DNA from: the human T2T-CHM13v2.0 reference genome, Homo sapiens
Length of the DNA: 64,000 nucleotides
Reading direction: 5' to 3' (one strand)
Assembly: GCF_009914755.1 (NCBI RefSeq)
Contig: NC_060929.1
Part shown: piece after piece, positions 1 to 13,813 of the stretch
How positions within the stretch are numbered: position 1 is the first letter of the stretch
Layout of the letters: every line of letters begins with the position of its first letter
The notes under the pieces: generated by a model
Database searches by the model: none
What the model was told of the DNA's origin: nothing
Seen by the model: the letters and a program-made list of their open reading frames with translations, nothing else
Translations under genes and position numbers: made by a program

Positions 1-764
1 CTTAGAGAAATGCAAGTCAAAGCCACAATAAGATATTGTCCCATGCCATTAAGAATGGCTATTATTAAAAAGTAAGAAAATAACAGATGCTGGCAAGGTT
101 GTGGAGAAAAAGGAATGCTTACACACTGTTGGTGGTTGTATAAATTTGTTCAACTATTGTGGAAGACAATGTGGTGATTCCTCAAAGACCTAAAGACAGA
201 AATACCCTTCAACCCAGCAATCCCATTATTTGAGTGTATACCCAAAGGAATATAAATCATTCTATTATAAAGACACATGCATGGGTATGTTTATTGAAGC
301 ACCTTTCACAATAACAAAGACATGGAATCAACCTAAATACGCATCAATGATAGATTGGATTAAAAAATTGTGGTACATATATACCATGGGATACTATGTA
401 GTCATAAAACAGGATGAGATCTTGTCCTTCACAGGGACTTGGTTGGAGCTGTAAGCCATTATCCTTAGCCAACTAATGCAGGGAGAAAAAAAAAATACCA
501 CATGTCCTCACTTAAAAGTGGGGCTAGAAGATGATGACACATGGACACATAGAGGGGAAGAATACACACTGGGGCCTATCAGGAGGGTGAAAGGTGGGAG
601 GAGGAAAAGGATCAGGAAAAATAACTGATGAGTACTAGGCTTAATACCTGGGTGATAAAATGATCTGTTTTACCAAACTCCCATGATCCAAGTTTACCTG
701 TGCAACAAACCTGCACATGTACCCCTGGACTTAAAATAAAATTTACAAAGAAGAAAAAGAAAAA
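1..764 (+). mobile_element. L1 3' end (ORF2 C-terminus + 3'UTR + A-rich tail), older L1PA (about L1PA13-16)
   Basis: ORF 230-454 resembles the L1 ORF2 C-terminus (KTWNQPK, MIDWIKKLWYIYTMGYY). 3'UTR contains 'ggcttaatacctgggtgat...cctgcacatgtacccctggacttaaaataaaa' followed by an A-rich tail. Confidence 0.93.
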
Positions 765-1341
765 TTGGTTTAAGTGTATATTTCCTAAATTAAAGATAAA
801 CGTTGAATTTCACTTAAAATGTAAACAAACATTTTATTCTCTCAATGCTGACCAAAGCCTTTGTTTTGAGTATGGGGGATTATTCTCAATCGAGTTTCCT
901 GTTGTCTTTCTTGTATACCCGGAAGACTTTTTTAGCAGCTAATTTTATTTTCCTACAGTGGGGAGAGAATGTAAGTACATTTTTGTAATAGTTTGGTCTC
1001 ATCATCCTTTGAGTTTTATAATCTTTTTTCCTCAATTACATCTTATACTTGTCTCACACTACCTTGACAGTGATTATTCTGATTCACCTTTATTATTTCC
1101 AAAGCATGCAATTTTCTTAATAGAACTCTTTTTTCTAATGATTTTTAAGTGCTTATTTAATTTAATTAATGCATATAATTGAAAAGAGCAGTAAAACTGG
1201 CTTGAACAGTTTTATAAGAGCTGGCTGAGTCTTAATAAGCGTTACACTTAATGCAGAGAGAAGTGTGTGGCTCACTAGAGAATAGCTACAAGCTTAGTGA
1301 ATTAAGAGAGCTTTGGACCCTAGACAGGAGGTGTTACAGAG

Positions 1342-1545
1342 GAATGGCTCTCAAATATGATTGATTTTTCCCCTCAGGGACATTTGGCAATGTCAGGAGA
1401 CATTGGCACGACTGTTCAGGGGAAAGATTGTTATTGGTATCTGGTGAGTAGGAGCCAGGGATGCTGGTAAACATCATGCAGGGTACAGGGCTGCCCTCAA
1501 AACAAGGAATTGTCTGTTAATAGTTTCACTGTGAAGGTACCTTGC
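1342..1545 (+). mobile_element. MER20 (hAT-Charlie DNA transposon), degraded
   Basis: 'cagggacatttggcaatgtcaggagacatt' and 'gccagggatgctggtaaacatc' match the recalled MER20 consensus. Confidence 0.85.
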
Positions 1546-4229
1546 TTATAGAGGAAATGGAGAGCTTCTAAGCCTCTGAGCCCTTTAAGAGGAATACATA
1601 TTGGAAATGTTATTGTTTCAACTACTAGGGTTTGTTCGCATCCAGAGGCAAGTTGAAAAGTCGTATTTTCTTCAACCTTTCATATTCCATAGCAAAATAA
1701 ATATTAGGTTGTACATAGAAAGTACTTGATAAATTCTTGTTCAATGATACAGATACAGGATGCAAAAATGATTTGTTACAAGCCAAAGGGGAGGTAAAGA
1801 AAAATGTTATAATGAAAATAAAGATGGAGCATGTGAAAGACTTAAGAAGGTGGAAAAGTGGCAAAAGTCAAGGATATGTTTCCAAAAAGTTTCTGATATG
1901 CTCTCTTTTGTGAGCAAAAGGCTTTTCTATTACAAACTGTTTCAAGCAACCTAAAATATCATGTTCTGTGATTTTAGAAGTTTACAAGTATGGGGCCATA
2001 TGCACAATATACGTACTTGAGATTAACCTGAATTACTGCTAAATTTAACCTTGCTTACACATAAATGCAAGCTATACAAGCCAGTTGGATTGTTTTAAAA
2101 AGAGATGAATAATATTGAAAATTTTTTTTACCAATAGGACTGAAAAAAGGACATTTCTTTAAAAGATATTTTATATAATATTACATCTCTCTACTTGGAA
2201 GATACTTTCACTTCTAGATTTAGAACTAATTTTCTAAAAATTATACTCATTTGAATTTTCAAAAATCATTATGTTTAGTTTAGGCTATAATATTTATAAA
2301 GTGCACAAAATGTTACCCTATCAATAGTTTTACCCCATTTGTTAAAATTTGTACCTAATTTGGAAATTCGACATGCCAGGAGAAATTTATAAGCAGTAAT
2401 CCATTCACTGTTTGCAAAGCAATTGGTATAACAACTAAGAGACATGCCATATTGGTAGAGGGATTAAATAGTCATAGCAGAAGTGCAGTTCATATTTGCT
2501 TTAGTAATACTGGCAGAGAGATAACATCTATTTGAGACTTACAAATGGGGTTTCATTTCCTTCAGCTACATCATACTGTATTTTGAAGGAGAGTGATTTC
2601 AGCAGGCTTTTGTCTTATGCAAGCAATACTAGCAAACCCAGCAGGATGATGAGTGCTAGATAGTTGCAAAATTGATATTAGGAGAAATTTAAGTAATTAA
2701 ACTTTAACACCTTAATATTGACTTTTGTCTGGCCTTTTACATGTAATACATTTATTATGCACAAGCAGATGCTGACATTCATGTTAGGAAGGTAAAAATC
2801 TTTGGAAAACTAAACTTGAGAGCTCCCTGATCACTATTTAATAGTAGCATCCTTTTTTGTTTGATCATTATCTACAAATGACTTTAAAGAATATTATTTG
2901 TCTTAATTTGCTTTAAAAACTCTGAAGTTTTTATCCCTATGCTGGTTTTGATATTATGCCACTTCAGCCCTATCTTCAGCCTGACTTCCTTCTCTTCCAT
3001 AAGAAATAAGTACTGAGTCAAGGGAAACTGATCATTTGCCTCTGTTTTAGGATAGATTTATAGGCAGGTCATAGGTCTAGGAAACTACCATAGCATCACA
3101 GTCTGGCATCAGTGTGTCTGAATTACAGACACAAGGTCCCCTGAGAAAATAGCCAGGTTCTGGAACCCTTAAATGTCATTCCAGTTGTAGCATTTATATA
3201 GTTGCAAAATGTCACATTTATTTTAAATTTCTTTTATCTAATACCTACTGAAACAGAATAGTATTTTTTTTAAAGATGAAATTGAGATTTTTTAAGTTGA
3301 AGGTAGTAAGCCAGATACTGAACTGAGAACTAAAGTTTTAAGAATACAAGAAAAATAAATCCCAGCATAGGTAACAGAATGATTTGAAAAGTGCAAAAAT
3401 AAATGTAAAAAACCATTGTGCAGAGGCAATTGAAGTAAAAGTAACCATTAGAATCACAAAAATGAAAAGGACTTTAAGTCATCATTACCAAACCTACTCA
3501 GAAGGAAGCCTTTTTAAAGTAACATAGCACAAAGAATGTTATAAATTGAGAATGTGCAGAGTGCCATGGACAAAAACAGTATAAGCAAAATAGCAGATTC
3601 TGATACAATGCTACTTTTTCTAGAAGCTTCCAAGGAGTACATGCTGAAAGATTGCTCTATGTAAAAATAAAAATATTCTGAGGTATTTTGAATCTTTGTC
3701 CTAAGCATAATAAAAGAGTCCACTGGTGAACTGTGGGAGGGTATAGGATGTTTTCACCCATTTTTGGAAAAGACCTAAGGTGGTCTAAAAAGTAAGCTGA
3801 AAGCTTATTTCCTTTCTAAGTCCAAACCAGATTCTTATATCTTATAACTCTAAAAATGAGGAAATGTCTGACATAGTAAGAAGATTTATGTGATGTAACT
3901 AAAAAGACCAAGAAATAATAAAAGTCCAAGAAAACTTGCAACTGAGTAAGCCTAGTTCATGCAACAAAGAAAAATTCCACAGTATGTATTATCTTTTCTT
4001 TTTGGGGTAATGAGGACATGAAAATTGGTCTTAAGTTGAGATAAATTATAGCAAATATGAATCGATGAATAAAATATAATATAGTTAGAATGTGAGGAGT
4101 GTGGAGATGAGGTGTAAAATAGAGATGAAAACAAAAAGACCATAACTGAGAGGATTGCATGTTAAAGATTCCAGTCTTCAAAACACTAAGGAAAATAAGA
4201 AACAAGTAACGAAGCAGGTGAGTGAAATG

Positions 4230-4660
4230 ATTATAAACAGAATAAGGTGATAGTGGTAGACACTGGGAATAGTGAAGAAATTCAAGAGATATTTAGGTCA
4301 TAGATTAAGGTGATATTGTGGTTGATTTGATATTGGTGAAAGAAAGAAGAGAGTTTTCTGATTTTTAAGTTTCTTTCATGATTTTTTTTTTAGAAATTTA
4401 ATATTTTCTGGCTTTAATTTTTTTTTAATTTTTCTGCTCAGGTTTTCTAATTTGGGTAACTTGATGAGTGGTGCTGCCAATACTGGAATTAAGAAATATA
4501 AATTTAATGCTTGGATTGATGGTATAATAAATTAATTTTTATTCATTTTGAATTTTTGTGTTCTTCTGAAGCATGAATGAGAAGAAATTTCTTAGGTTTT
4601 GTAATCAGAAAAGGCATCTGGATTAAAATGTGAATTTGAAGATTGTCAGCACATAGGTAA
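4230..4660 (-). mobile_element. L2 LINE fragment, highly degraded
   Basis: Purine-rich L2 antisense-type motifs ('attcaagagatatttagg', 'ggttttctaatttgggtaact', 'aatttgaagattgtcagcacataggta'). Confidence 0.55.
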
Positions 4661-4896
4661 CAATTACTTCACAATGATCAGTAAACTTCTTTTTAAAATA
4701 TTTGTGCTGAAAACCCAATTAAAAATGCAAACTTCTGAAAAGAGGAAAGAATTTAGAGCTAAATATATCAAAAAGATGAGAGACACATAATTGTGGTAGG
4801 AAACAAACACCAAAAAGCATTTATTAATTCTCTAGACTTATTTTGTCCTATTTCTTTTTATTTTTTGAGTATATAGTTGTAAGAAAACTACCTAAG

Positions 4897-4960
4897 AAAT
4901 TTGAAGTTTGAAGTTAATTACTAAACTAAAAAATTTGAAGTTTGAAATTAATTACTAAAC
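4897..4960. repeat. Tandem duplication, 34-bp period
   Basis: 'aaatttgaagtttgaa(g/a)ttaattactaaac' at 4897 and 4931. Confidence 0.9.
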
Positions 4961-5011
4961 ATTAGTATTTCCTCTCTTAACACTGAGTCTTTCCTTCACT
5001 GTTCATTTACA

Positions 5012-5079
5012 ATATCCCATTATTCATATATTGATAATTATATACATATCCCATTATTCATATATTGATAATTATATAC
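5012..5079. repeat. Perfect tandem duplication, 34-bp period
   Basis: 'atatcccattattcatatattgataattatatac' at 5012 and 5046. Confidence 0.92.
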
Positions 5080-5420
5080 ATTTTACATTACTCATATAAA
5101 TATGAGTGGTCTAAATAGTTATATGAGTAATTTATATATATTAGATATACATTATATATGCATATATATTTATATGTGTATATTTATTTATATGATATAT
5201 AAATATATAAATATGTGTAATATAAATATAAGAGTAATATCAAAATGTTTATATATTAAAAGAGTAACATAATTTAATATATAGGTTGTCCCACTTTTTA
5301 CTTTCTCTCATTCTAATAAAGAATCTTTGCTTTCTCACTCTTGCCTAGTTCAGAAGAGTAGAGGTTAACAGAGCAGCTCCTAGACATTTGTAATGCCACA
5401 TCAGAAAATGGATAGGCCCT

Positions 5421-5758
5421 TGCTATGGTCTGAATGCTGATGTCTCCCCAACATTTATAAGTTGGAACCTAATACCCAATGTGATAATATTGATAGGTGG
5501 GGCCTTTGGGGATTTGACTGAGTCACGAAGGATCCACCCACTTTAATGGGATTAGTGCCCTTTTCGTGCTATCGCCAAGTGAGGGTGCAATAATAGGCAT
5601 CACGTCATCTTTGAAACCTTCATTACTCACTGAGTTAATCTACTGGTGTTTTGATCTTGAACTTCTCAGCCTCCAAAACTGTGAGAAATACATTTCTATT
5701 ATTGTATTAATTACCCAGTCCAAGGTATTTTATTATAGAAGCCTGAAAGGCCAAGACA
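5421..5758 (+). mobile_element. MaLR solo LTR (MLT1A-like)
   Basis: Starts 'tgctatggtctgaatg'; contains 'ggtggggcctttgggg' and 'aatgggattagtgccctt'; ends 'aattacccagtc...aagaca'. Confidence 0.85.
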
Positions 5759-7559
5759 TCCACCAATAGGGGGAATTGATTAGAAAGAAAACTGCATTGG
5801 TCCACATCACAGAGAGACTGGTGTTAGGGAGGGAGAAAGGGAAGCTAGGAAAGAGAGAAAGGCAATTTTATGTGTGCTTTTGGTCAGTGTTGTTTGTTGT
5901 TAGACATGAAAGGACTGTAAAGACAGAAAAAATTATAGCAGTGAGTTATGAATCATATGTATTTTCAAAAATACACTAATTCTATTAATTAGTTATTTTC
6001 TTAAATTTGGCTTGTGGTTTAGATATAACTCAATGAAGAGACTGACCATGCTTGTTCACGTTTCATAAAAAGAACATAAAAAATAGATTTCTATTCATGG
6101 CAAACAGAAGATCTCACTTCTCAATCTACTGCCATCATGGGACCATGGTAAGGACACTATCTATGGTGTACTAATTGTTGGATAAGTTCAACAGGAACAA
6201 TGAATACTTCTCACTTACCGTTTAAAATTACATCATTAGCCAGACTATGTTACTGCTGATGCAAGCCATTTTAAAACTATTTAACATATAACAATGTGTA
6301 TCATTAAATGAAATGTGTATATGACACCACAATTATAATTACAAGTGTGCTGTTTTCTTTTGCTACTGTAATTACACAATAAGACATCTGATACCCAGTT
6401 TTATCTGCATAGTTATAGGAAAGTAGTGTTGACATCTATCAGCTTGAGGAAACCACACAATGAATTATCATAATATAAATTATTTGTGTTAGGCTCCATT
6501 ATGTGTACTTGAAGCTGGTGTATAGATTGATATTAGGTTTATTTTTATTCATAACCTCTGACATGACTATCATAACAATTTTGAAAAGATACATCAAATG
6601 TCAAAAATCTCATTTTGTAGATTTGAATGTTTTATTGTATAAATTAATATATATGCATTTCCAATATGTACATATAATGTAGTATATCGATAAATGTATG
6701 CATGTAATACTAAATATGAACACATATATATATATATGCAAATACAAATAGAAAGAGCAATGTTTGTTCATTAAATCCATTGTATCCAACTCAATATTTT
6801 CTGAACTGTCAAGATTTCACATTATAGCCAATGTATTTTAAACTACTAACTGCTATTATAGGTCAAAATCTTGCTAAATGAAATATTTTATTTGACTCAA
6901 GTTAGTATATATATTATTGGTGGCCCATTTGGAGATACTTCTCATCACACATATATATTTTTCTCTTTCTTTGTTATTTCTTTCTGTGATATTCTGTGTT
7001 ATAAGATAACCCCACATTATTTGCTTGTATGTTTTCCAAAACATAATGGTAACAAAATTCACATTTAAAAATATGTATGATTAAAATAGATATAAGGTTC
7101 TATATCACAGTTCCCTAGACTACATTTCTATGACACAATGTCATCTTCCAATTGATTGACTAGTCTATTGCTTAATACAGAGATGATTGAAAATATTTTT
7201 GTCAAGAGACATCCTGCACTTTATTGAAACTCAGAAAAATATATTTTCAGCTATGTATTGGTGTCTTTTAGCTCTCATTGCCACTGTCACATTTGTTACC
7301 ACTTTCTATGAAGGCCATGAGAGAAATGTGAGTAAAATGTAGAAAGTTTGAAATTTATCCAAAGCATGTTAAAATATATAGAACGTGTTGATGTTTAATT
7401 ACCCATGTCACAAGACAAACAGTACAACAAAAGTATCAGTAATAATAGCAATAATTGCAGTACAGATCTTAAAAAGGTTATATGAGTTTAGCCAGTTATG
7501 TGGATCTTCTTATACTTAAATACATTAAAATAAAGGAGATTAAGACAGTTATGACTGGT

Positions 7560-8689: not shown

Positions 8690-10460
8690 TCATATCATTA
8701 CTGATACCATCAACTGTTCTAATTAAATAAAATAATGTATCATATCGCTTTAGAAATGGTGATATCTCGGTACGTTAACTTCAAATTAGGAAATTATCTT
8801 GTAAGTTTGCTAGATGATATGTATGTCTTGCTAGGCAATACAAAGAACATTTGGGATCTGAATAAGCACAAGGCACAGTCATGGACCTGCAGGAGTTTAT
8901 CCCCCAATGGAAGATTAGACTTTGGTTGAGAAATCCTCCAAACGTAAACCTCAGGGAACAAATCCCTTGCCTTGAGCAAAATCACATTCCCAAAATAAGA
9001 GTCTGATCCATTTTCAAATCAATTTTGCTTGATTTAACAAATTTTCTTATATAAATCAATGAATTCACATTTTAAGAAATGTTTGAAAATAAGAATATGA
9101 AAGCAGCAATTTAGGCTCATAACTTGCCTTTATATCATATTTTTTAAATGAGAGAAACAAGTTTCTATGTGACACAAAGAGCATTTCATGATCTGAATAA
9201 TTACATAAGTTTTCTTTAAGTTATTCCCCGGCTGGGGGTGTTGGGGGGGCGGGCGGGGATACAGCAATACACAATCTACAAATGTATTCTTTTAGAAGTT
9301 AGTGTAAGGAGAGAATGTTCTATTTTATGTTTGGTTTTTGTTTTATTTAGTGTTATTGCTTTGGCATTATATCACTGTGTAATAATTATATGTGACTCCA
9401 GACACAAGGAATGCTTCCCATTTTCCTTCTCTTCTTGGAGGAAAAGAATATCTTTGTTTACATGATAATCTCATTGATAAGAGAATGATACTGAATATTC
9501 AACAGTTTCTTATTTGCCCAATGCTTTCCAGCAAAATAAACACTTTGCATGTACTCTTTAATGCAATAAATATTTACTCTATACATAGCTACTCTCATAA
9601 TTCACTTTAGGAAAGTGTGTATGTATATATGGACGTCGACATTGTCTTTCTGCTGTTATGCACACTTCCTCACAGCTGCATTCATGAACACCCACTATCT
9701 ACAGTTCTTACTCTGGTTTGGACTCAAAATATAATAATTTAAATATAATTTACCATTAGCCTAACAAATGAGTCTATGTGGTGAACTTGATTAAAGTGTT
9801 CCACTCAAAGAGTTTCCCAAATTGTTTTTAAGAAGCAGACATTATACAGTTTCCAACTGAGAAAGTGAAACTTTTTGTGGTTTTGTTTTTTAATGTGGAA
9901 CCTCTTTTCATTTTCTATCCTCTACAAAGAATATTCAGTATCTAGGTTTTATTTCAATTGTGTCTTGAAAATTCTGTCCTGGTAAATTAACACTACTTTC
10001 TTAAATTCAATTATAGTTTATGTTATTTTTAGTCTATGTAATCCTAGCTTAGGCAATTAAAATTCTACCCAGTCTTGTTATGTGGCTCTTTTATGGAAAA
10101 CATTTTTGAATCCGATGTCTTCCAGAACTCTGATCCAGTGTAACCCTTTCCAACAGACTTCAAATGATGCTGAGATAGTATTCCAGGTCTTGGTGCTTAT
10201 AAATTAGCTAAATATAATCCCTGATGTTTCCCTATTTCTGTTTTGAAATGATAGTGTTGGAACAAAATATCTTTCATTGATAACTGTAGAAGATTTTATT
10301 TACTGTTATCAAGTGGATATGGAATGGTTTACCATTATTGCCGTTATCCAGTTGATCAGAATTACTTCAAGACTTTAGTTCTTAACTTTTGCAGCTTGTG
10401 CTGTTCAACTCATGTTTATAGGATCCTAATACACATGGAAGGCATAATATATTTTTCTCA

Positions 10461-10529
10461 GGCCGGGCGTGGTGGCTCACGCCTGTAATCCCAGCACTCT
10501 GGGAGGCCGAGGGAGGCGGATCATCTGAG
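10461..10529 (+). mobile_element. Alu 5' fragment (first ~70 bp only)
   Basis: 'ggccgggcgtggtggctcacgcctgtaatcccagcac...ggcggatcatctgag', then an abrupt switch to non-Alu sequence. Confidence 0.9.
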
Positions 10530-10585
10530 AAGTAGCCTCTCCCGGACTGCGTTTAGCTGTCTCACCACCCATAGTAGTATCCTTT

Positions 10586-10891
10586 TGTTGTAGGAGTTTC
10601 TCCTTAGTTCAGCTAAAAGTGGGGTCCTTCTCAAACGACCATGAAAAATTAGGCCTGCAGACATTTTGAAGGGTGGAAAAAAAATTGAACGTTTAGCTGA
10701 AAAGGAAAAAAAAAAAAAAGGAAAACAGGGACTCAGCAAAGCGAGAGTCCTGCAAGCCGGTTTCCTGCCTTACAGATTGAATCCCAGGTACCACCCTGGA
10801 ACAGGAGAGGCCAGGCTCCTGCCCCCTGCACATGACGCAAACTTTCCAAGGCTCTACTGCAGTGTGCACTCGTTCCAGTGTGCAAGCCGGA
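10586..10891 (-). mobile_element. MER61 LTR (ERV1), main body; its 5' end is displaced by an inversion
   Basis: Reverse complement ends '...ttttagctgaactaaggagaaactcctacaaca' and contains 'gaggccaggctcc'/'gaatcccagg' motifs of the recalled MER61 consensus. Confidence 0.85.
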
Positions 10892-11139
10892 TGCAGTGGC
10901 ACGATCTCGGCTCACTGCAACCTACGCCTCCCGGGTTCAAGTGATTCTTCTGCCTCAGCCTCCTGAGGCTGAGGGATTACAGGCGCCCGCCACCACGCCC
11001 AGCTAATTTTTGTATTTTTAGTAGAGATGGAGTGTCACCATGTTGGCCAGGCTGGTCTCGAACTCCTGACCTCAAGTGATCCGCCTGTCTTGGCCTCCCA
11101 AAGTGCTGGGATTACAGGCGTGAGCCACAGAGCCCAGCC
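10892..11139 (-). mobile_element. AluS (Sx/Sz-like), 5' ~250 bp, lying inside the inverted segment
   Basis: Antisense Alu running from 'tgcagtggcacgatctcgg' to 'gagcccagcc'; no tail at this location. Confidence 0.93.
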
Positions 11140-11620
11140 CAGATTGGGCATTTTCAATTAGCTCAAGATGGGTCATCTTTTGTTGCATATTTCGGACAGC
11201 CAACTAAACTGTCAGAGCCCTTACTAACTCCTGTAGCTTCAACAGTAAATGCAGATTCTCTGCTCAGTGAGAACATATCAATACATTCAAAATGATTCAA
11301 CTTTGTGTTCTTTCCACCATTATCCTAATCATTTATATCCATTCCGACACTTCTTCTCCAGAATTTGCTTGTAGAACTTTAAAAACTCACGTAGATTTTT
11401 TTGGAGTTAGCATACTCTTGATGGGTCATGCTTTGTACCTCGCGTTTAGGTACTTGCTGATACTTGAGTCTACTTATACTTCTCGAAGCAAGGAGGAATG
11501 ATAGGTGCTGGTTCTAAGAAGAATCAGAATTGTCTTACAAGGTAACTGCCTTAGGGGAGGCCATTCCCTTTCCCTCAGGAAATGTGGGATTTATACCCTC
11601 AGATTGGAGGTGGAAAAAAG
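11140..11620 (-). mobile_element. ERVL (HERVL/ERVL-B4-like) internal gag fragment, inverted
   Basis: Reverse complement reads 'ggaatggatata...ggataatggtggaaagaacacaaagttgaatca...gcagagaatctgcatttactgttgaagct...aaaagatgacccatc...gaaaatgcccaatct', collinear with recalled HERVL gag. Confidence 0.85.
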
Positions 11621-11660
11621 TGAGATAGCCAAGTATAAAGGGGTCACCGAAGAACCTCCA
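11621..11660 (+). mobile_element. MER61 LTR 5' terminal ~40 bp (inverted relative to its body)
   Basis: 'tgagatagccaagtataaaggggtcaccgaagaacctcca' matches the MER61 start (TGAGACAGCCA..AAGGGGTCCCCGGAGAA.CTCC). Confidence 0.8.
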
Positions 11661-11661
11661 T

Positions 11662-11752
11662 CACTCCAGCCTGGGCGACAGAGCAAGACTCTGTCTCAAA
11701 AAAAAAAAAAAAAAGAAAAAGAAAAGAAAAAAGAAAGAAAAGAAAAGAAAAG
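11662..11752 (+). mobile_element. Alu 3' end + A/GAAAA tail (continuation of the Alu at 10892-11139)
   Basis: 'cactccagcctgggcgacagagcaagactctgtctc' followed by poly(A). Confidence 0.92.
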
Positions 11753-12428
11753 AATGTCCTATCTCTATTGATTTAATATGGAGGAGAGGACTCAAAAGCT
11801 TAGAAAAAGAATAATGTTAAAATTGAGTTTGTTATTTAAGACATATTCATCCACACTGGGAGGGCCCAGAAGACATAATTTCATGAATACTTTGATAAAT
11901 AAATTGGTGAGGGGACCCCAACATCCTTAATGAGTTCAGTGATCACTCTTCTATGTAGGCCAGACCCTGCAATAAGAACTGGAAACACTTAATTAGAAAA
12001 CCTAACTTCAATAATTAGACATTGGAGGGCCAGGGGCCAAGTGGCAGCACCCAACCTCCAAAGTTAATGTGAGTGTGGTTACTGTGATGGATAACGAAGT
12101 CAAAAAAGCTATCAAAATTGTCTCACCCATAGACCTCTGGCATTGGCCAGTTAATTATGGCATTCCGGGAAGTGAGAAAAATAGGAAGACTACTAAATTT
12201 GTACTTTATCTGTACGAGCAGAAAACTTTTAGGCCAAGCAAACAGAAGTCTAACACAAATGATAAAACAGAGAGTCGCAGACTTTCAGTGTTCAGATTTG
12301 AACCAGTTTACAGAGCCAGAACCCCTTGAATGAAGCAAAGGGGAGGCTGGGTTTCCTCATTGAAGAACCCTGGAAAACGACCAAAAATAATAACTTATAC
12401 AGTTAATCTTTCTTCCATCCTTCCCCAA
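11753..12428 (+). mobile_element. ERVL internal gag to gag/pro junction fragment (decayed)
   Basis: 'catccacactgggagggcccagaagacata', 'caggggccaagtggcagcac', 'gacctctggcattggc', 'ccagaaccccttgaatga'. ORF 12069 contains DLWHW.VNYGIP.SE, resembling ERVL Gag. Confidence 0.9.
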
Positions 12429-12551
12429 CACATACACGCACACATACACACACACACATATGCGCGCGCGCGCAATTTTTTTTCTTTTTTCTTTTTTTCT
12501 CTTTCTTCTTTTTCTTTTTCTTTTTTCCTCTGGAGAACCCTGACAAATACA
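12429..12551 (+). mobile_element. MLT2 LTR 3' tip with compound (CA)n-(CG)n-(T/C)n tract
   Basis: Ends 'cctctggagaaccctgacaaataca', the typical MLT2 terminus; MLT2 LTRs carry a microsatellite just upstream of this. Confidence 0.7.
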
Positions 12552-13813
12552 ACCATCAAACTATCAAATCCGAAGGCTGCAACTTCTGACTCTGCTTTCA
12601 TCTCCTGTTCAATATTTGCACTCTGCTTCTCATATATAACTTATTTAAAATATTCCACGTACTATTCTGCCTCTCATTCATAGCCTTAGGATAGTTATTT
12701 GTTCAAAAGTTACATGTTCCTATTTCATAATCTTTGGTGTACTGTTTACAGAAGTGTTTTGCATAAGACGCAGTTAAAAAGAGTTTTTTTTCTCTGTAAG
12801 AAATGAATAAAAATGTAAAACACCTCCTGAAATAAATATTTACTATCTTAGCATAGTTTATCAATTACTACATCAAATATATGATATTGTTTTAAAGTTC
12901 AAAGATGTAGCAATTTTCTGAATAGATGCTCTCAAAATGAATTATTATTTGTTTCTCTCGGTGTTTTATTATTATTATGGTTGTAAAGTTATAAAACAAA
13001 TTCAATTCTAAAGCAGAAAGTCAAGAAATAAAACAATGTTAAATGAATTATCATATTAGAGCACAATGCAAAGATGAAATATTTAAAAGCTTAAGATATT
13101 TTAATAACTATAAAATGTATTTAGATACATCTTAATAATAAATTGTATTACATAAATAATTGAATGCATCACAACTAAAGAGACTAAAATTAGGTGTATT
13201 TTAAATTAATAAAAAGATAGTGTGTGTGTATTTGTGTGTATTTTTGCAATATTATTATTAAGAGCTATTCAAAGTTTTCAAAGAGAAATTATAATTTATT
13301 TTCAATCATCAAAGATAAGTTAAAAATAGAAAAATATATTTACATGAAATATGTCTCCAATATTCCCATATAATTTTGTATTTTAACTTATCTTACATTT
13401 TATTTTTATATTTAAAACCCAATGTAATTTTAAATTTTTAAAACTTAAATTTTAGTGTTGATATACAGAAAATAAATTTCACGGTGACTATGAATACATT
13501 ATCTTTACTAAAATAAATAGCTATTAACAACTTACCAGTTATATTTTATTGTATAAAATTCACACAATAAAGTTTATAAAATGTAAATATGTTTCTAACA
13601 CGATTAAAAATTCTCAGTGAAAACACCACACAGGTGGATAAAGAGAACACTGCCAGTGCCTCCCTCCCTTTAAGAATATCCTTCCTCCTATTCCAAAATA
13701 ACTATTTAAATTTCAGTTAAATATTTTTAAATTTTAAAAATAACTTATGATTCTAAAAGCAATGGTCTTTTGTGAATTTTCCAACTTTTAAAAAATATAA
13801 CCTGCCCTTATGA

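What the first reader, a model, noticed from the sequence alone, without database searches (positions are those of the whole stretch)
10892..11661. ~770-bp inversion reconstructable from three broken repeats (MER61, Alu, ERVL gag)
Seen: reverse-complementing about 10892-11661 repairs three elements. (1) The MER61 body (minus, 10586-10891) rejoins its 5' end (plus, 11621-11660), giving '...gaacctcc-at-ccggcttgcacactgg' and restoring a 4-bp TSD CTTT/CTTT, the expected ERV1 length. (2) The Alu 5' part (minus, 10892-11139, ending 'gccactgca') rejoins its 3' end 'ctccagcctggg...polyA' (11662-11752), with a degenerate TSD 'aaaatgcccaatct'/'agaatgtcctatct'. (3) ERVL gag (minus, 11140-11620) becomes collinear with gag at 11753-12428. 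The breakpoints share only inverted microhomology ATG (10891-3)/CAT (11659-61), with almost no base loss. Inference: a non-homologous (NHEJ/MMEJ or template-switch) inversion postdating the AluS insertion, either lineage-fixed or polymorphic. Order of events: ERVL, then MER61 and Alu, then inversion.
Basis: partly seen in the sequence, partly recalled or inferred. Interest (0 to 1): 0.8.

Follow-up and report, generated by a model that had tools for sequence, protein, structure and literature searches.

The report
Small old inversion splitting three repeats
A 770-base stretch of non-coding human DNA was flipped at some time after an Alu element landed there, cutting three old mobile-element remnants in two; it is a real but ordinary neutral rearrangement.

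Summary
I mapped each piece separately onto other copies in the same genome and joined nothing. The LTR 5' end (11621-11660, +) and the LTR body (10891 to 10586, -) fall on adjacent bases of other LTR copies. The ERV-L stretch 11620 to 11140 (-) lies directly upstream of 11753-12428 (+), on the same strand, in 11 of 11 reference copies; the 13-base overlap is the Alu target-site duplication. The Alu 5' part (11139 to 10892, -) and 3' part (11662 onward, +) overlap by 2 bases in 7 of 8 window Alus. One inversion of about 10892-11661 explains all three. Nothing was lost and 3 bases were gained: CAT at 11659-61 and its complement at 10891-93. A short inverted likeness (7 of 9) borders both breakpoints; chance gives this 2.4% of the time.

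- No protein family confirms "gag"; the stretch lies 0.55-1.7 kb upstream of reverse transcriptase in ERV-L copies.
- The LTR's left flank is single-copy DNA, not ERV-L, so "MER61 inserted into ERV-L" is half supported.
- The names MER61 and AluS were not testable.

Whether the inversion is fixed or polymorphic could not be tested, because no other primate or human haplotype was available. It lies in a lncRNA intron and no function is expected. Interest is low.

The parts
10461..10529 (+). Alu 5' fragment of 69 bases, cut off on its 3' side, no A-tail. It is outside the inversion and marks a separate older breakpoint.
   Evidence: (I1: 86% complementary to 11071-11139)
10530..10585 (.). Single-copy flank of the LTR 3' end. 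It ends in CTTT (10582-10585). It is not ERV-L and not the LTR element's internal part.
   Evidence: (only self-hit)
10586..10891 (-). It lies outside the inverted segment.
   Evidence: (40 scored matches at 76-81% identity, 1009 first-look candidates)
10890..10894 (.). Left junction. The LTR body meets the Alu 5' part. ATG at 10891-10893 is the reverse complement of CAT at the right junction. The two bases 10892-10893 fit either element.
10892..11139 (-). Alu 5' part (positions 1-246 of about 283), inside the inverted segment.
11140..11152 (-). Left copy of the Alu target-site duplication (ERV-L sequence), now inverted.
   Evidence: 13-base overlap on 6 of 11 references
11140..11620 (-). ERV-L internal stretch, upstream half, inside the inverted segment. 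Homology is detectable at 11141-11616. AAAG at 11617-11620 is the possible LTR target-site copy.
11621..11660 (+). First 40 bases of the LTR, inside the inverted segment.
11659..11663 (.). Right junction. The LTR 5' end meets the Alu 3' part. CAT at 11659-11661 is the 3-base duplicate.
11662..11752 (+). Alu 3' part (from about position 245) with a decayed A-rich tail, outside the inverted segment.
11753..12428 (+). ERV-L internal stretch, downstream half. Its first 12-13 bases are the right copy of the Alu target-site duplication.

Best explanation
Window 10892-11661 (about 770 bases) is a simple balanced inversion of a stretch that earlier read, left to right: single-copy DNA, a full 346-base LTR on the minus strand, an ERV-L internal fragment on the plus strand, and a full-length Alu on the plus strand with a 12-13-base target-site duplication.

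One break fell 40 bases into the LTR. The other fell about 245 bases into the Alu. The segment between them was rejoined in reverse.

Shown:
- Nothing was lost.
- The Alu is cut cleanly.
- Three LTR bases (CAT) are present at both junctions.

Inferred:
- The mechanism was non-homologous. Either two breaks were rejoined by end joining, one of them a 3-base staggered break that was filled in, or a replicative template switch occurred. In the second case, a nascent strand ending in the LTR annealed to the similar, oppositely oriented Alu motif, copied back, and returned.
- The inversion is younger than the Alu, which is about 9% diverged. From general knowledge of Alu ages that means within roughly the last 30-40 million years.
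- It is most likely fixed.
- It is neutral: it lies in an intron of LINC02211, more than 33 kb from the nearest listed exon.
For: Piecewise mapping:
- LTR.
- ERV-L: (11 of 11 references collinear; 6 of 11 with an exact 13-base overlap).
- Alu: (7 of 8).

Other points:
- The Alu's 5' target-site copy travels with the Alu 5' end inside the inverted segment. So the Alu was complete before the flip.
- Junction bases were read and aligned.
- No long inverted repeat sits at the breakpoints.
- Inverted likeness is 7 of 9 between rc 10891-10883 and 11665-11673. Random position pairs 771 bases apart reach this 2.4% of the time.
- The locus is single-copy apart from its repeats, so a paralogue mix-up is unlikely.
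- Alu divergence is 25 of 282 aligned bases, 11 of them at CpG.
Against: - No outgroup or second haplotype was available. The direction (this arrangement derived) rests only on parsimony from the repeat anatomy, and fixation is untested.
- The homeology is only suggestive (2.4% by chance), and the right junction has 0-1 base of microhomology. The two mechanisms cannot be told apart.
- Two anomalies nearby show that the locus has had at least one more rearrangement that the single-inversion model does not explain: ERV-L stops 5 bases from the LTR edge, and a 3'-truncated Alu fragment lies at 10461-10529.
- The Alu age rests on a rough 16-copy mixed majority sequence.
Confidence: 0.9

Rival explanations
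1. The inversion is real but recent: specific to humans, or still polymorphic or private to this haplotype.
For: Nothing in the sequence dates the event other than the Alu upper bound. The junctions are very clean, with no loss and a readable 3-base duplicate. It was not found among the inversions of two papers whose text or held supplements I searched, and no paper couples LINC02211 with inversion.
Against: If the event is equally likely at any time since the Alu landed (about 30-40 My, a recalled figure), the last 6 My is about one sixth of that span and the span of present human polymorphism is a few percent. Clean junctions do not decay faster than the rest. The searches above cover only 12 of 18 supplement files of one paper and 2 small files of another. 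InvFEST, gnomAD-SV and HPRC could not be consulted.
Confidence: 0.18
2. Assembly artefact: the segment was mis-oriented when the genome was assembled.
For: It cannot be excluded here, because no reads are available.
Against: A 770-base segment lies well within single long reads. No long inverted repeats flank it that could confuse an assembler. The junctions show a 3-base duplication and base-exact continuity, as biological rejoining does. That this assembly is a finished long-read one is recalled, not tested.
Confidence: 0.02
3. No inversion of host DNA happened. Instead, the split Alu arose during its own insertion (twin priming), or the pieces are independent insertions.
For: An Alu with its 5' part inverted relative to its 3' part plus tail is the signature of twin priming (a recalled mechanism; a paper on it appeared only in the listing).
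Against: The two Alu parts are not adjacent. 521 bases of ERV-L and LTR lie between them and are inverted too. The Alu's 5' target-site copy sits at the Alu 5' end inside the inverted block. The LTR and ERV-L are split at the same two points.
Confidence: 0.01
4. The inversion is one step of a larger complex rearrangement (several switches or breaks). That event also removed the upstream ERV-L sequence and truncated the Alu at 10461-10529.
For: ERV-L homology ends 5 bases from the LTR edge, although 11 of 11 references continue for at least 700 bases. A 3'-truncated Alu lies 56 bases from the LTR. The 56-base spacer is single-copy.
Against: Neither anomaly lies at an inversion breakpoint; they are 306 and 362 bases outside the left one. 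The LTR between them is intact and full-length. Separate older events explain them as well.
Confidence: 0.1

Closest known systems
Human inversions made by non-homologous mechanisms (NH class; Giner-Delgado et al. 2019, PMC6748972; passages read)
   Same: There are no long inverted repeats at the breakpoints. The size lies within their range of 83 bp to 415 kb. A few bases are gained at the junction, as in the 18 NH inversions they describe with small deletions or insertions that may come from a single FoSTeS/MMBIR event.
   Different: Their set is polymorphic and was genotyped in populations; here the population state is unknown. The only chr5 entry I found in the 12 of 18 supplement files searched is at 147.5 Mb.
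Retrotransposon-associated inversions between human and chimpanzee (Lee et al. 2008, PMC2603318; abstract and section 6 read)
   Same: An Alu spans one breakpoint. They report 63 of 203 non-RRMI inversions with an L1 or Alu at only one breakpoint, and they suggest microhomology with the other breakpoint, as seen here (7 of 9).
   Different: This is not their RRMI class, which needs two same-family elements in opposite orientation spanning both breakpoints and leaves chimeric elements. Here the partner is an unrelated LTR, and the junction elements are Alu/LTR hybrids. The locus was not found in their 2 held supplement files.
Microinversions flanked by inverted repeats (Potapova, Kondrashov and Mirkin 2022, PMC8755829; abstract read)
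   Same: A short imperfect inverted repeat borders the inverted segment. Template switching or microhomology-mediated break-induced replication is proposed as the mechanism.
   Different: Their events are 17-33 bases long with perfect or near-perfect flanking repeats. This one is about 770 bases, with a 7-of-9 likeness that chance gives 2.4% of the time.
Twin priming of LINE-1/Alu insertions (recalled; a paper on it seen only in the listing)
   Same: The 5' part of a retroelement is inverted relative to its 3' part and tail.
   Different: Host DNA lies between the two parts and is inverted too, and the target-site copy moves with the 5' part. So the inversion came after the insertion.

Membership tests
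Simple balanced inversion (two breakpoints) | Sequences split at breakpoint 1 and breakpoint 2 become continuous when the segment between them is read on the other strand | tested here: met
   Three independent elements were mapped piecewise on other copies
Simple balanced inversion (two breakpoints) | No net loss or gain beyond a few bases | tested here: met
   The Alu pieces overlap by 2 bases, the LTR pieces abut, and the net gain is 3 bases
Simple balanced inversion (two breakpoints) | The un-inverted arrangement is seen in an outgroup or another haplotype | not testable with these tools
NAHR or retrotransposon recombination-mediated inversion (RRMI) | Two long, highly similar repeats in opposite orientation span both breakpoints | tested here: not met
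   The breakpoints lie in an LTR and an Alu that share only 7 of 9 bases next to the break. The nearby inverted Alu pair 10461-10529 / 11071-11139 is not at the breakpoints.
Twin-priming insertion | The inverted 5' part abuts the 3' part, and both lie inside one pair of target-site duplications | tested here: not met
   521 bases of inverted host DNA lie between the parts, and one target-site copy is inside the inverted block
ERV-L (class III endogenous retrovirus) internal region | Homologous copies carry RT, RNase H and integrase, followed by a dUTPase | tested here: met
   L023: RVT_1 2.7e-20, RT_RNaseH_2 2e-12, dUTPase 9.3e-09. L024: RVT_1 3.1e-15, RT_RNaseH_2 4.5e-07, Integrase_H2C2 0.0016 and dUTPase 0.0047, both below Pfam's cut-off. 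That a dUTPase behind integrase marks ERV-L is recalled.
ERV-L gag | The stretch encodes recognisable Gag domains | tested here: inconclusive
   0 of 6 read-through frames give a credible Pfam hit. In L023 the homologous stretch lies 550-1700 bases upstream of the RT domain, and one ORF there hits DUF5535 at 1.3e-06.
   L026 and L027 hold LTR pairs 5.5-5.8 kb apart with a collinear internal part at 76-84% identity
   0 of 24 internal ORFs hit Pfam. No repeat library is held, so the name is untested.
   CTTT is present on both sides, but one flank is ERV-L and the other is single-copy DNA

The most novel reading that the evidence does not exclude
The inversion arose on the human lineage after the split from chimpanzee, or is still segregating. 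In that case it would be a cleanly resolved example of a template switch guided by chance likeness between two unrelated mobile elements (an LTR and an Alu), usable as a homoplasy-free lineage or population marker.
Probability: 0.15. Interest if true: 0.3.

Novelty: new member of a known kind. Interest (0 to 1): 0.15.

Why it matters
It matters little for function. The inversion lies in a lncRNA intron and touches only dead repeats. Its value is as a worked example: nested repeats let a small inversion be reconstructed to the base from one genome, including the order of events and the 3-base junction duplicate. If orthologues show where it arose, it is a clean rare-genomic-change marker for primate phylogeny. 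It is also one more data point on how short chance likeness between unrelated repeats may steer non-homologous inversions.

Tried and rejected
- Pfam on six read-through frames of the two ERV-L pieces (after one search failed on stop codons): only two chance-level hits (E about 0.06), so 'gag' is not confirmed.
- Pfam on 24 internal ORFs of two paired-LTR loci: no hit, so class I identity of the LTR element is not shown.
- Search for the missing upstream ERV-L sequence. The 700 bases upstream in 11 references match nothing else in the window. The 56-base LTR flank gives only weak alignments at inconsistent positions: scores 7-16 against shuffle maxima of 12-14 (only L021, at 16, exceeds its maximum). 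It has no other genomic copy.
- Test of whether the 56-base flank is the LTR element's own leader: homology ends at 10585/10586 in both LTRs of L026 and L027, so this was rejected.
- Literature for this locus: no paper holds LINC02211 together with inversion. There is no chr5 entry near 25 Mb in the searched supplements of PMC6748972 (12 of 18 files) or PMC2603318 (2 files). Supplements not searched, and databases such as InvFEST, gnomAD-SV and HPRC, may still list it.
- Loci for the second ERV-L search could not be cut. I used the flanks of the loci and two fetched regions instead.

Full report
**What is there.** I read window 10300-12600. Read on the minus strand, the left junction (about 10883-10899) shows an Alu 5' part running straight into the body of an LTR. 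On the plus strand, the right junction (about 11650-11673) shows the first 40 bases of an LTR running into the last part of an Alu with its A-rich tail. Between the junctions lie the Alu 5' part (10892-11139, minus), a stretch of ERV-L-like sequence (11140-11620, minus) and the LTR start (11621-11660, plus).

**How I tested it.** No repeat library is held, and I did not build an un-inverted sequence. Instead I mapped each piece separately onto other copies of the same repeat in the same genome, which turned out to be searchable (G000; the window is C5:25358001-25422000).

**LTR.**
- The body (rc 10891-10586) has 40 scored matches at 76-81% identity out of 1009 first-look candidates.
- In 9 of 9 fetched references, homology ends at 10580-10587 on one side and 10880-10901 on the other.
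- The 40 bases 11621-11660 match the stretch directly 5' of the body in 4 of 9 references, and in 3 of the 4 LTRs of two paired-LTR loci.
- The joins are base-exact. In L003, piece positions 1-39 map to 1461-1499 and body position 1 to 1501. In L002, piece position 40 maps to 1806 and body position 2 to 1804. In L026, 11657 maps to 6221 and body position 2 to 6216.
- L026 and L027 each carry two such LTRs, 5.5-5.8 kb apart on one strand, around a collinear internal part at 76-84% identity. So this is an LTR of a provirus-like element, and 40 + 306 = 346 bases is its full length.
- None of 24 internal ORFs hit Pfam.

**ERV-L.**
- rc(11620-11140) and 11753-12428 each find hundreds of candidate copies at about 70% identity.
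- In 11 of 11 references the two pieces lie on the same strand with the first upstream of the second.
- In 6 of 11 (L012, L014, L018, L020, L021, L022) their ends overlap by 13 reference bases. In the other 5 the alignment stops early or an Alu lies between.
- The overlap is the Alu target-site duplication: rc 11152-11140 against 11753-11765, identical at 10 of the first 12 bases.
- In two 10-kb references the homologous stretch lies 550-1700 bases upstream of an RT domain. RNase H, integrase and a dUTPase follow it. This is the ERV-L gene order as I recall it.
- The window pieces themselves give no Gag hit. 'gag' is therefore a positional inference only.

**Alu.**
- Ten other window Alus match the 5' piece over at least 200 bases, and 8 of them also match the 3' piece.
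- In 7 of those 8 the two pieces overlap by exactly 2 bases; one shows a 5-base gap.
- On a rough majority sequence of 16 SINE copies, the pieces cover 1-246 and 245-280. They differ from it at 25 of 282 bases, 11 of them at CpG. This is a middle-aged Alu. The subfamily was not tested.

**Junction accounting.**
- If the Alu is taken as cut between 10894 and 11662, it is complete with nothing lost or gained.
- The LTR bases CAT then appear at both junctions: at 11659-11661 and, as the reverse complement, at 10891-10893. The net gain is 3 bases.
- Assigned the other way, each junction has 1-2 ambiguous bases.
- Next to the breakpoints, on the outer sides, rc 10891-10883 and 11665-11673 agree at 7 of 9 positions. 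Before the flip these two stretches were in opposite orientation.
- Random position pairs 771 bases apart in this window reach 7 of 9 (offsets of ±4 allowed) in 2.4% of 200,000 trials. Between the LTR body and the Alu pieces, 129 of 80,758 9-mer pairs do. The likeness is suggestive but not proven to be causal.

**Mechanism (inferred).** There are two candidates that I cannot separate.
- (a) Two double-strand breaks occurred, one of them staggered by 3 bases and filled in, and end joining rejoined them in reverse.
- (b) A replicative template switch occurred. A nascent strand ending in the LTR motif can pair with the oppositely oriented Alu motif, including its last two bases. Extension from there gives exactly the left junction. 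Copying back through the same 3 bases before returning gives the duplicate. The right junction has 0-1 base of microhomology.
- Both mechanisms are described for human inversions (PMC6748972, passages; PMC2603318, section 6; PMC8755829, abstract).

**Order of events.**
- The Alu's 5' target-site copy sits at the Alu 5' end inside the inverted block, so the Alu was complete before the flip.
- The LTR is likewise split, so it was also there first.
- The inversion is therefore younger than a roughly 9%-diverged Alu.
- I could not test how much younger, or whether all humans carry it.
- If the event is equally likely at any time since then, I give about 15% to a human-lineage origin and a few percent to a present polymorphism. 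These time figures are recalled.

**What does not fit.**
- ERV-L homology begins at 11616, 5 bases from the LTR edge, although all 11 references run on for at least 700 bases upstream. None of that upstream sequence is anywhere in the window.
- The other LTR flank (10530-10585) is single-copy, is not ERV-L, and is not the LTR element's own internal part.
- So the CTTT / rc AAAG match is a true target-site duplication only if the LTR landed within a few bases of an older truncation point. Otherwise an unseen deletion is needed.
- A 69-base Alu 5' fragment without a tail at 10461-10529 marks another old break.
- Neither anomaly is at an inversion breakpoint.

**Rivals.**
- Twin priming and independent insertions are excluded by the anatomy.
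- An assembly error is unlikely but was not tested.
- A larger complex event is possible but not needed.

**Verdict.** This is a real, cleanly reconstructable small inversion of a known kind, lying in an intron of LINC02211 far from its exons, with no expected function. I found no mention of it in print, but those searches were narrow.

Noticed in passing
window 10461-10529: An Alu 5' fragment of 69 bases on the plus strand, cut off on its 3' side and without an A-tail. Retrotransposition cannot produce this, so it marks a separate old deletion or rearrangement breakpoint 56 bases left of the LTR.
   Followed up: partly
window 10530-10585 and 11616-11620: ERV-L homology stops 5 bases from the LTR edge. 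The LTR's other flank is single-copy DNA, although 11 of 11 ERV-L references continue for at least 700 bases upstream. The 4-base CTTT match may therefore not be a simple target-site duplication.
   Followed up: yes
window 11703-11756 and 12473-12526: The Alu's decayed A/G-rich tail and a T/C-rich tract about 720 bases to the right form a 54-base inverted repeat, 76% complementary (I2). The T-rich tract follows a CA and GC dinucleotide run at 12429-12472, right where ERV-L homology ends.
   Followed up: no
L023:5798-6319 (+), a reference ERV-L copy on C12: An ORF in the region homologous to window 11753-12428 hits Pfam DUF5535 above its cut-off (E 1.3e-06, 29 bits against 25). This suggests that this family of unknown function is ERV-L derived.
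   Followed up: no
window 12361-12377 and 12531-12547: A 17-base direct repeat at 82% identity brackets the end of the ERV-L stretch and the simple-repeat block (D10). Its meaning is unknown.
   Followed up: no
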